Assembly (NCBI RefSeq): GCF_057098645.1
Contig: NZ_CM169472.1
DNA: 64,000 bases
Direction: 5' to 3' (one strand)
Part shown: piece by piece, positions 6,664 through 7,279 of the stretch
Layout of the letters: each line of letters starts with the position of its first letter
Numbering within the stretch: position 1 is the stretch's first letter
Made by a program: the position numbers and the translations under genes
The notes under the pieces: generated by a model
What the model saw: only the letters and a program-made list of their open reading frames with translations
The model's database searches: none
Told to the model about the DNA's origin: nothing

Positions 6664-7279
6664 GATTTACTAAAGGCTGCAACTGCTTCGCCATCCAGTC
6701 GGCAATAAACGGCTGGGCGTCGCGGTTGGGATGAATACCGTCATCCTGCATCCATTGTGGCTTGAGGTAGACCTCTTCCATAAAAAAGGGCAGCAGCGGA
6801 ACATCAAACTCTTTGGCGAGTTTGGGGTAAATGGCGCTAAAGGCTTCATTATAACGGCGACCATAGTTTGCAGGCAGACGTATTTGCATTAACAATGGTT
6901 CAGCGTTGGCGGCTTTGACATCCTGCAAAATCTGGCGCAGCGTTTGCTCGGTTTGCTGTGGCTGAAAACCACGCAAACCGTCATTGCCGCCCAGTTCAAC
7001 CAGCACCCAGCGCGGCTGATGCTGTTTCAGCAGAGCCGGAAGGCGCGCCAGCCCTTGTTGCGAGGTGTCGCCGCTGATGCTGGCATTAACTACCGACGTT
7101 TTACTCTGCCACTTATCATTCAACAAGGCAGGCCAGGCCGCGCTGGCAGACATTCGATACCCGGCGCTCAGGCTATCACCCAGAATCAATAACGTGTCCG
7201 CTGCGGCGGCACGGAAGGTTAACAGGACCAGGAACAGGAAGGGCAAATGCCAGCGGAAAACATTGTTGAAGTTCATCAT
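6653..7279 (-). CDS. tesA: SGNH acyl-CoA thioesterase I / lysophospholipase L1 TesA
   Basis: Start at MMNFNNVF gives 208 aa; signal peptide and GDSLSAG motif. Confidence 0.9.
   Translation of the reverse strand: MMNFNNVFRWHLPFLFLVLLTFRAAAADTLLILGDSLSAGYRMSASAAWPALLNDKWQSKTSVVNASISGDTSQQGLARLPALLKQHQPRWVLVELGGNDGLRGFQPQQTEQTLRQILQDVKAANAEPLLMQIRLPANYGRRYNEAFSAIYPKLAKEFDVPLLPFFMEEVYLKPQWMQDDGIHPNRDAQPFIADWMAKQLQPLVNHDS

What the first reader, a model, noticed from the sequence alone, without database searches (positions are those of the whole stretch)
7247..7279. Divergent tesA and ybbA coding sequences overlap by about 33 bp at their 5' ends
With tesA starting at MMNFNNVF (7279, minus) and ybbA at MPAENIVEV (7247, plus), the two start codons are face to face with overlapping N-terminal coding regions. 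The promoters must therefore lie inside each other's coding sequence, or one annotated start is wrong.
Basis: seen in the sequence. Interest (0 to 1): 0.25.

Follow-up and report, generated by a model that had tools for sequence, protein, structure and literature searches.

The report
Real tesA–ybbA head-to-head gene overlap
Two E. coli genes that face away from each other (the lipase gene tesA and the transporter gene ybbA, whose proteins work together) really do share their first 30-33 bases, so each gene's control signals sit inside the other gene; this is genuine and conserved, but it is already in the annotation and in published transcript maps.

Summary
ybbA starts at ATG 7247 (+). tesA starts at the ATGATG at 7279/7276 (-). 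The overlap is 33 nt from the first ATG, or 30 nt from the second, which RefSeq annotates and which is the only one invariant in 80 Enterobacteriaceae species. No alternative start removes the overlap.

ybbA's Shine-Dalgarno sequence sits in tesA's signal-peptide codons. Inside ybbA codons 12-34, synonymous sites are frozen in a pattern that fits tesA's translation-initiation region plus an invariant TTGACA-17 nt-(G/A)AGGAT promoter-like element.

Published maps, read from a supplementary table of Huang et al. 2020, put the ybbAP transcript 5' end near tesA's 3' end and a tesA 5' end inside ybbA. They also record double-stranded RNA across the junction. ExcludonFinder (2025) lists tesA-ybbA as a divergent excludon.

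In nine more distant lineages with a readable junction, the two start codons lie between -8 and +64 nt apart, so a near-zero spacer is old.

Whether the antisense pairing regulates anything is untested. Verdict: real, ordinary, already known.

The parts
7247..7279 (.). Head-to-head coding overlap of ybbA (+) and tesA (-): 33 nt from tesA's first ATG, 30 nt (7247-7276) from the conserved second ATG
   Evidence: Sequence and ORFs; RefSeq annotation; near-zero column entropy across 80 Enterobacteriaceae sequences
7247..7933 (+). ybbA CDS (ABC transporter ATPase, 228 aa)
   Evidence: ORF; 100% match to PDB 9GE6/7/8 YbbA over residues 1-228; ATG invariant, and an upstream in-frame stop at 7220 in E. 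coli
6653..7279 (-). tesA CDS (periplasmic SGNH lipase/thioesterase I precursor). Start at 7276 (207 aa, conserved) or 7279 (208 aa). Residues 1-26 are the signal peptide
   Evidence: ORF; PDB 1IVN and 9GE8 chain T begin at A27; start-codon conservation
7236..7243 (+). ybbA Shine-Dalgarno sequence (AGGAAGGG), lying in tesA signal-peptide codons (Phe-Leu-Phe)
   Evidence: -7.0 kcal/mol pairing to the anti-SD; 7236-7239 are invariant, and variation in 7236-7243 is confined to 7240 (5 of 80 species) and the tesA third-position site 7241
7277..7312 (-). Inferred proximal tesA 5' leader and translation-initiation region, inside ybbA codons 11-22
   Evidence: ybbA synonymous sites at 7280-7302 have mean entropy 0.24 bits, against 1.12 for the rest of the gene; the right edge of the Lybecker dsRNA locus maps to 7310
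7319..7347 (-). Candidate proximal tesA promoter inside ybbA codons 24-34: -35 TTGACA (7347..7342), 17-nt spacer, -10 (G/A)AGGAT (7324..7319)
   Evidence: Relaxed scan; all six -35 bases invariant, including three synonymous sites; five of six -10 bases invariant; retained in L082, a lineage with 70% TesA identity. No direct TSS evidence
7468..7475 (-). Published 5' end of the minus-strand (tesA) transcription unit at 7468, next to a TATTAT hexamer at 7475..7470
   Evidence: Conway et al. overlap 518389-519178, as tabulated in Huang et al. Table S1e, with an offset of 511710; hexamer; the hexamer is not conserved between species
6679..6679 (+). Published 5' end (promoter 'P') of the plus-strand ybbA-ybbP unit. 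It implies a leader of about 570 nt that is antisense to all of tesA
   Evidence: Conway et al. entry 'P 518389 ... T 522176, +, Divergent, overlap 789' in Huang et al. Table S1e; p19-captured duplexes across tesA
6974..7310 (.). Region recovered as double-stranded RNA in vivo: p19 cluster S-52 at 6974-7247 and Lybecker locus MS-118 at 7185-7310
   Evidence: Huang et al. 2020 Table S1e and Table S3
7275..7275 (+). Published minor plus-strand TSS inside the overlap (Dornenburg antisense TSS, 6 reads)
   Evidence: Huang et al. Table S1e row: 518985 +, RNA start ATCATCTTAAGAAGTCCGTC, which matches the window sequence from 7275
7930..10344 (+). ybbP (FtsX-type permease), overlapping the ybbA stop by 4 nt
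5854..6663 (-). ybbO (aldehyde reductase), downstream of tesA; its start overlaps the tesA stop by 11 nt

Best explanation
ybbA starts at ATG 7247. tesA starts at ATG 7276, and at 7279 where that codon exists. It is the Enterobacterales form of an old arrangement in which tesA and the ybbA-ybbP operon face away from each other with almost no spacer. The two genes encode partners of one lipid-hydrolase/ABC-transporter complex.

Because there is no intergenic DNA, each gene's ribosome-binding site and promoter lie inside the other gene's coding sequence. ybbA's Shine-Dalgarno sequence is written in tesA's signal-peptide codons. tesA's initiation region and a conserved TTGACA-17-(G/A)AGGAT element are written in ybbA codons 11-34. 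The shared 30 nt encode the loosely constrained n-region of the TesA signal peptide and the N-terminus of YbbA.

The two mRNAs are therefore antisense to each other over their 5' parts. Published maps put the ybbAP leader across the whole of tesA, and the transcripts form dsRNA that RNase III cuts.

Shown: the overlap, the conservation of the starts, the synonymous-site constraint, and the published transcript overlap and dsRNA. Inferred: the position of the proximal tesA promoter. Also inferred, at about one chance in three: that the pairing matters, through mutual masking of the two ribosome-binding sites, RNase III cleavage or polymerase collision, linking the output of the two partner genes.
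For: - Sequence, ORFs and annotation.
- Start codons in 80 Enterobacteriaceae sequences: the ybbA ATG and the second tesA ATG are invariant. The first tesA ATG is ACG in 16. Codon-12 TTG is TGG or CTG in 10. The upstream codon at 7309 is ATG 42, GTG 27, CTG 9, TTG 2.
- Substitutions inside the overlap are mostly synonymous or conservative for YbbA but change TesA residues, as expected if YbbA is translated from 7247 and TesA's n-region is tolerant.
- Mature TesA starts at A27. YbbA 1-228 matches the solved protein.
- ybbA third-codon-position entropy is 0.13 bits in the overlap, 0.24 at 7280-7302, 0.21 at 7318-7335 and 0.00 at 7342-7348, against 1.12 in the remaining 194 codons. No 23-codon window elsewhere in the gene falls below 0.96, against 0.51 observed.
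- TTGACA-17-GAGGAT scan hit with invariant bases, retained in a lineage with 70% TesA identity.
- Shine-Dalgarno pairing is -7.0 kcal/mol for ybbA.
- Literature: the PLoS Biol 2025 paper says the two operons partially overlap and the proteins form a complex. ExcludonFinder Table 1 lists tesA-ybbA among 16 divergent excludons. Huang et al. 2020 Table S1/S3 record p19 cluster S-52, Lybecker MS-118 'Divergent', a Conway overlap of 789 nt, and 21-22-nt duplexes over the ybbA Shine-Dalgarno region.
- Distant lineages: every locus with enough upstream sequence has a divergent ABC ATPase gene next to tesA, with spacers of -33, -8, -2, -2, 0, +13, +17, +25, +52 and +64 nt.
Against: - No direct TSS or initiation-site measurement for either gene could be read here.
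- The consensus scans found no canonical sigma-70 promoter on either strand. The candidate -10 matches only 3 of 6 bases.
- The published minus-strand 5' end (7468) is not where the conserved element predicts a start (about 7312), so there may be two promoters or the prediction may be wrong.
- The conserved block at 7318-7333 also reads as a Shine-Dalgarno sequence for the in-frame codon at 7309. A longer TesA precursor, with a 63-nt overlap, is therefore not excluded in E. coli.
- A regulatory role for the antisense pairing is unproven. An excludon implies mutually exclusive expression, which sits oddly with two proteins that act as one complex.
- Both transcripts are detected together in total RNA (the meaning of those columns is inferred).
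Confidence: 0.8

Rival explanations
1. The overlap is real but functionally neutral. It is a by-product of genome compaction and of start-codon drift: ybbA's His-His codons CATCAT read ATGATG on the other strand and were captured as a slightly upstream tesA start. The antisense transcripts and dsRNA are then tolerated noise, with no effect on protein output.
For: The spacer length drifts between lineages, from -33 to +64 nt. The overlapped part of TesA is the cleaved, loosely constrained n-region of the signal peptide. According to Huang et al., most (87%) E. coli genes give at least some dsRNA reads. The antisense hexamer opposite the conserved YbbA Ile-Leu codons is automatically -10-like.
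Against: The spacer stays at or below 64 nt in all ten lineages with a readable junction, although TesA identity falls to about 41-47%. Synonymous sites of ybbA codons 12-34 are strongly constrained, which shows selection on embedded signals, though not on pairing. tesA is among the stronger p19 dsRNA loci (182-2396 RPM).
Confidence: 0.45
2. One start is mis-annotated and there is no coding overlap. tesA would begin at the TTG at 7246, giving a 197-aa product that abuts ybbA's ATG, as some automatic gene calls have it. Alternatively, ybbA would begin downstream.
For: Public gene calls include 197-aa and 189-aa TesA versions. The tesA ATGs have only weak Shine-Dalgarno pairing (-3.2 kcal/mol).
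Against: The TTG is TGG or CTG in 10 of 80 species, whereas ATG 7276 is invariant. The TTG has essentially no Shine-Dalgarno pairing (-1.5 kcal/mol). A 15-residue leader would also lose the invariant Arg9 of the n-region. ybbA has no canonical start between 7247 and the Walker A motif, and its first 11 codons evolve like coding sequence. The 197-aa calls abut ybbA's ATG exactly, which looks like gene finders avoiding 5'-5' overlaps; this is my inference and was not tested.
Confidence: 0.04
3. tesA in E. coli starts further upstream, at ATG 7309. This would give a 218-aa precursor and a 63-nt overlap. The conserved RAGGA block would serve as its Shine-Dalgarno sequence rather than as a -10 element.
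For: The strongest Shine-Dalgarno pairing in the region lies just upstream of 7309 (-7.9 kcal/mol). A start-capable codon occupies that position in 71 of 80 species. Sites at 7280-7300 are as conserved as the true overlap. Some gene callers give 218 aa.
Against: Nine species have CTG at that position. The base pattern at 7309 is what ybbA's His/Gln codon alone would give. Codons 2-3 of the proposed extension vary freely. A 36-residue signal peptide with a 21-residue n-region would be unusual. The invariant TTGACA exactly 17 nt upstream of RAGGAT fits a promoter better.
Confidence: 0.1

Closest known systems
Annotated tesA (b0494) / ybbA (b0495) pair of E. coli, and the YbbAP-TesA complex (PLoS Biol 2025, PMC12646458)
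   Same: It is this locus. The sequence is 100% identical to RefSeq E. coli over 6600-8000. [quoted passage not shown]
   Different: The paper does not analyse the start codons, the embedded signals or the spacer length in other lineages. RefSeq uses the second ATG (30 nt overlap), whereas K-12-style coordinates use the first (33 nt).
Divergent excludons, i.e. 5'-overlapping divergent transcripts (ExcludonFinder, NAR 2025, PMC12288877; Huang et al. mBio 2020, PMC7373196)
   Same: tesA-ybbA is listed by name among the 16 divergent excludons of MG1655. It has a p19 dsRNA cluster, a Lybecker dsRNA locus and a Conway overlapping-operon entry.
   Different: Classic excludons overlap in untranslated regions and give mutually exclusive expression of genes with opposing functions. 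Here the coding sequences themselves overlap, the two products are partners in one complex, and mutual exclusion has not been shown.
Head-to-head (divergent) CDS overlaps in prokaryotic annotation, the rarest overlap class and often attributed to start-site misprediction (from general knowledge of surveys of overlapping genes; not checked here)
   Same: A short 5'-5' overlap between real genes, with inconsistent automatic start calls ranging from 189 to 218 aa and longer.
   Different: Here comparative evidence supports both starts, so this is not a misprediction.

Membership tests
Genuine divergent (5'-5') coding overlap | Both reading frames belong to real protein-coding genes | tested here: met
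   TesA and YbbA match solved E. coli structures at 100% identity. Pfam GDSL-lipase families are recorded for the TesA homologs, and ABC_tran for the divergent neighbour in related loci.
Genuine divergent (5'-5') coding overlap | The start codons in actual use lie so that the coding sequences share bases | tested here: met
   This rests on comparative inference only. ATG 7247 and ATG 7276 are invariant in 80 species, and the alternatives that would remove the overlap are not conserved. No direct initiation-site data were found.
Divergent excludon | Transcripts of the two divergent genes overlap in their 5' regions | not testable with these tools
   Reported in the literature: ExcludonFinder Table 1 and the Conway 789-nt overlap as tabulated by Huang et al.. 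No RNA data could be analysed here.
Divergent excludon | dsRNA forms and is processed by RNase III | not testable with these tools
   Reported in the literature: p19 cluster S-52, 21-22-nt duplexes at window 7223-7244 and elsewhere in tesA, and Lybecker locus MS-118.
Divergent excludon | Mutually exclusive or reciprocal expression of the two genes | not tested
   No data were found. Both sense transcripts are present in the same total-RNA samples (column meaning inferred), and the proteins act together, so this feature is doubtful.
Sigma-70 promoter (for the candidate element at 7347..7319) | -35 and -10 hexamers with a 16-18 nt spacer, and a mapped TSS 5-9 nt downstream | tested here: inconclusive
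   The -35 matches 6 of 6, the spacer is 17 nt, and the -10 matches 3 of 6 (A2, A5, T6 present). The element fails the tool's 4-of-6 rule. Conservation at synonymous sites is strong. There is no TSS measurement; the only supporting datum is the dsRNA right edge at 7310.
Symmetric bidirectional promoter (back-to-back divergent TSSs from one -10 region) | Two divergent TSSs arise from a shared, symmetric -10 element lying between the genes | tested here: not met
   There is no intergenic region. The reported and predicted 5' ends lie beyond each other, making the promoters face-to-face, and no promoter-like site lies in the overlap.

The most novel reading that the evidence does not exclude
The near-zero or negative spacer between tesA and ybbA-like genes is kept across Gammaproteobacteria. 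Together with a ybbAP leader that runs antisense through all of tesA, it could be a selected post-transcriptional coupling device. Pairing of the two mRNAs would mask both ribosome-binding sites and recruit RNase III, setting the ratio of the periplasmic lipase to its ABC transporter. That would be an excludon-like architecture used to balance partners rather than to exclude one of them.
Probability: 0.2. Interest if true: 0.45.

Novelty: already known. Interest (0 to 1): 0.2.

Why it matters
For annotation, this is a clean, conserved example showing that a 5'-5' coding overlap need not be an error. Automatic gene finders mis-call TesA here, giving 189-, 197- and 218-aa versions and longer fusions.

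For biology, tesA and ybbAP encode a recently described lipid-hydrolase/ABC-transporter complex. Their signals are interleaved, so deleting or recoding the 5' end of either gene, as in knockout collections or the widely used leaderless 'TesA constructs at the native locus, will disturb the other gene's promoter or ribosome-binding site.

Whether the antisense pairing tunes the ratio of the two partners is a small, testable question. It would not change any general principle.

Tried and rejected
- Consensus promoter scans of 6600-8000 and 4800-7300 found no sigma-70 site on either strand. A relaxed scan gave one conserved candidate for tesA and none convincing for ybbA.
- A possible ybbA-proximal -10 (TATCAC, 7174-7179), suggested by the left edge of the Lybecker dsRNA locus, is TGTCAC in 60 of 80 species, so I dropped it.
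- No usable -35 accompanies the published plus-strand 5' end at 6679.
- TSS tables: Thomason 2015 is not held. The supplements of Romero 2014, SMRT-Cappable-seq and Conway 2014 have no tesA/ybbA text or are not held. The stored, truncated part of the Cappable-seq GTF has no entry near 519 kb.
- The TRAINSPOTTER N-terminomics supplement has no TesA or YbbA peptide.
- Rfam search of 6400-7800 at E <= 1 found nothing.
- The putative tesA leader has no unusual fold (z = 0.35).
- The one run of three invariant third positions in tesA (6692-6698) is trivial, because two of the three codons are Trp and Met (sequence).
- Locus L041 has a frameshift in ybbA, probably an assembly error, and was excluded.
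- L100 had too little upstream sequence to judge.

Full report
**What is there**

The window around 7247-7279 is E. coli. Bases 6600-8000 are 100% identical to several RefSeq chromosomes and are present in 5,418 of 5,426 complete E. coli genomes. On the + strand an ATG at 7247 opens the 228-codon ybbA frame (MPAENIVEV...). On the - strand the sequence ATGATG at 7279/7276 opens tesA (MMNFNNVF...).

The shared stretch is 33 nt from the first tesA ATG. That is the K-12-style annotation: tesA 518363-518989 and ybbA 518957-519643 in the coordinate table of Huang et al.. RefSeq/PGAP uses the second ATG, which gives 30 nt.

The two frames are exactly codon-antiparallel. ybbA's ATG is the reverse complement of tesA's His11 codon, and ybbA's His10-His11 codons (CATCAT) are tesA's ATGATG.

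**Are the starts right?**

For ybbA there is little room for error. An in-frame TAA at 7220 makes ATG 7247 the first possible start. The next canonical start codon downstream is the GTG at V42 inside the Walker A motif, which would delete the first strand of the ATPase domain.

A scan of one genome per species returned 80 Enterobacteriaceae loci with TesA 86-100% identical. In the alignment of 79 of them plus the window, 7247-7260 is invariant. Substitutions further into the overlap are mostly synonymous or conservative for YbbA (I6V, V7L, and synonymous changes at 7261, 7264 and 7273). The same substitutions change TesA residues (N5K, N6Y/H/T, F4C, M1T). This is what is expected if YbbA is translated from 7247 and the opposite strand encodes a tolerant peptide.

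For tesA, the solved structures start at A27 (ADTLLILGDS...). Residues 1-26 are therefore a cleaved signal peptide, and the start must lie upstream of its hydrophobic core.

- The second ATG (7276) is invariant.
- The first ATG (7279) is ACG in 16 of 80 species.
- The TTG at codon 12 (7246) is TGG or CTG in 10 species and has almost no Shine-Dalgarno pairing (-1.5 kcal/mol). This is the start some automatic callers use to give a 197-aa protein that abuts ybbA's ATG without overlap.
- An upstream in-frame codon at 7309 is ATG in Escherichia. Across the 80 species it is ATG 42, GTG 27, CTG 9 and TTG 2. The next two codons vary freely. It has a good Shine-Dalgarno-like sequence in E. coli (-7.9 kcal/mol).

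I cannot exclude some initiation at 7309. That would enlarge the overlap to 63 nt, not remove it. No reading of the data removes the overlap.

**Where the signals are**

ybbA's Shine-Dalgarno sequence (AGGAAGGG, 7236-7243; -7.0 kcal/mol) lies in tesA's Phe-Leu-Phe signal-peptide codons. Bases 7236-7239 are invariant; variation in the motif is confined to 7240 (5 of 80 species) and the tesA third-position site 7241.

The clearest new result concerns ybbA's synonymous sites. Third-position entropy is 1.12 bits over the last 194 codons. It is:

- 0.13 in the overlap,
- 0.24 at 7280-7302,
- 1.29 at 7303-7317,
- 0.21 at 7318-7335,
- 1.19 at 7336-7341,
- 0.00 at 7342-7348.

No 23-codon window elsewhere in the gene has a mean below 0.96, against 0.51 for 7280-7348.

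Read on the minus strand, the frozen blocks are an invariant TTGACA (7347..7342), a 17-nt spacer whose synonymous sites vary, (G/A)AGGAT (7324..7319), a variable stretch, and then about 23 conserved nt directly upstream of the tesA start. This is the layout of a promoter followed by a short leader and a translation-initiation region. It predicts a start near 7312. The same TTGACA-17-AAGGAT is present in a lineage whose TesA is only 70% identical.

The -10 is weak (3 of 6). The consensus scanner reports nothing on either strand, and I found no direct TSS measurement. This promoter is therefore an inference. No comparably conserved promoter for ybbA lies within 400 nt upstream.

**What published maps say**

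[quoted passage not shown] ExcludonFinder lists tesA-ybbA among the 16 divergent excludons found in at least half of 58 MG1655 transcriptomes.

Table S1e of Huang et al. 2020 has one row for this locus. Their coordinates minus 511,710 give window coordinates. The row records:

- p19-captured dsRNA cluster S-52 at 6974-7247, typed "5' & Full";
- Lybecker dsRNA locus MS-118, "Divergent", at 7185-7310;
- a minor plus-strand TSS from Dornenburg et al. at 7275;
- a Conway et al. plus-strand unit with its promoter at 6679 and terminator after ybbP, overlapping the divergent unit by 789 nt (6679-7468).

Their Table S3 lists 21-22-nt duplexes at 7223-7244, which is ybbA's Shine-Dalgarno region, and at three places deeper in tesA. 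Per-gene p19 reads are 182-2396 RPM for tesA and 11-86 for ybbA.

In total RNA, tesA shows values of 29.7/48.7, 27.2/18.0 and 27.4/31.7, and ybbA shows 21.7/0.5. I read these as sense/antisense pairs, but I did not see the column headings. If that reading is right, plus-strand transcription through tesA is about as strong as ybbA's own signal, which fits a long ybbAP leader antisense to all of tesA. Very little minus-strand RNA extends into ybbA, which fits a proximal tesA promoter better than the 7468 end as the main start. The right edge of the Lybecker dsRNA (7310) also coincides with the predicted proximal start. I read these entries only through Huang et al.'s table, not in the original papers.

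**How old the arrangement is**

I took TesA relatives from a search of cluster representatives and traced them to contigs. Every locus with enough upstream sequence has a divergent ABC ATPase plus FtsX-type permease next to tesA. I placed the starts by alignment and by the limits of the open frames. The start-to-start spacers are:

- -33 nt (-30 from the second ATG) in a 70%-identity Enterobacterales-like contig;
- -8 nt in L097;
- -2 nt in Vibrio (the palindrome CATG holds both start codons);
- -2 nt in an Alcanivoracaceae genome;
- 0 nt in L086 (CATATG);
- +13, +17 and +25 nt in three unnamed lineages;
- +52 nt in a Kangiellaceae genome;
- +64 nt in L094.

None of these spacers leaves room for two promoters and two leaders. 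Embedding of signals in the partner gene is therefore general for this gene pair, and the 30-nt overlap is one point on a drifting junction.

In 9 of 10 lineages the minus-strand reading of the conserved YbbA Ile-Leu codons gives an xAxxAT hexamer. This is partly forced by the codons, so I treat it as a curiosity rather than as evidence.

**Mechanism and its limits**

Shown or directly documented:

- the coding overlap;
- conserved starts;
- selection on ybbA's synonymous sites just upstream of tesA;
- overlapping transcripts and RNase III-type dsRNA fragments covering the ybbA ribosome-binding site.

Inferred:

- the proximal tesA promoter;
- any regulatory effect.

Pairing of the two mRNAs would cover both ribosome-binding sites and invite RNase III, and the face-to-face promoters could collide. 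Either effect would make the two outputs interdependent. But the products are partners of one complex, so classic mutual exclusion seems unlikely. A neutral origin is about as likely as a regulatory one: compaction plus capture of the ATGATG opposite two His codons.

No known RNA family or unusual structure is present.

**Verdict**

The only correction is that the conserved tesA start is the second ATG, giving a 30-nt overlap. The overlap is in the public annotation, the operon overlap is mentioned in the 2025 structural paper, and the pair is named in excludon and dsRNA catalogues, so it is already known. The added value here is modest: comparative proof of both starts, a candidate embedded promoter, and the observation that a near-zero spacer is widespread.

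Noticed in passing
window 7280-7348 (inside ybbA codons 12-34): Synonymous sites of ybbA are almost frozen across 80 species, in a block pattern that reads on the opposite strand as TTGACA, a 17-nt spacer, (G/A)AGGAT, a gap, and then a 23-nt conserved leader. The block at 7318-7333 is longer than a -10 hexamer. It also reads as a Shine-Dalgarno sequence for the in-frame codon at 7309.
   Followed up: partly
window 6679-7247, + strand (antisense to tesA): Published tables place the ybbAP transcript 5' end near tesA's 3' end, so all of tesA would be covered by an antisense leader of about 570 nt. tesA's antisense read values in total RNA equal or exceed its sense values (column meaning inferred). 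No recognisable promoter lies at 6679.
   Followed up: partly
tesA strand upstream of 7309; loci L007-L081: The tesA reading frame stays open for up to about 290 codons antisense through ybbA in many species. Public databases hold TesA calls of 189, 194, 197, 204, 207, 208 and 218 aa, plus fused calls of 310-402 aa. The exact antiparallel frame of a GC-rich gene seldom contains stop codons, so this region is prone to start-site artefacts.
   Followed up: partly
L083-L085 (Vibrio) about 2500-2503; L091 about 453-456; L086 about 1738-1743: In distant relatives both start codons sit in one short palindrome: CATG (2-nt overlap) in two unrelated lineages, and CATATG (zero spacer) in a third.
   Followed up: partly
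window 6653-6663 and 7930-7933: There are same-strand overlaps at both outer ends of the pair. The ybbO start overlaps the tesA stop by 11 nt, and the ybbP start overlaps the ybbA stop by 4 nt (ATGA). The whole four-gene cluster therefore has no intergenic DNA.
   Followed up: no
window 10561-10716, - strand: RefSeq annotates a DinQ-like type I toxin gene just downstream of ybbP in the near-identical strain RM9872, which is collinear with the window for about the first 13.27 kb. In the K-12 coordinate table the next gene after ybbP is rhsD instead.
   Followed up: no
window about 13270 onward: The window stops being collinear with strain RM9872 at about 13.27 kb because of an indel. Before that point there are only 5 mismatches in 13 kb. 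RM9872 carries a lambdoid prophage next to a tRNA-Arg gene further along its corresponding region.
   Followed up: no
L041 (Citrobacter amalonaticus AUH_CA_2023_1): The ybbA N-terminus is frameshifted in this assembly, while tesA is intact. This is probably a sequencing or assembly error rather than a real loss of ybbA.
   Followed up: no
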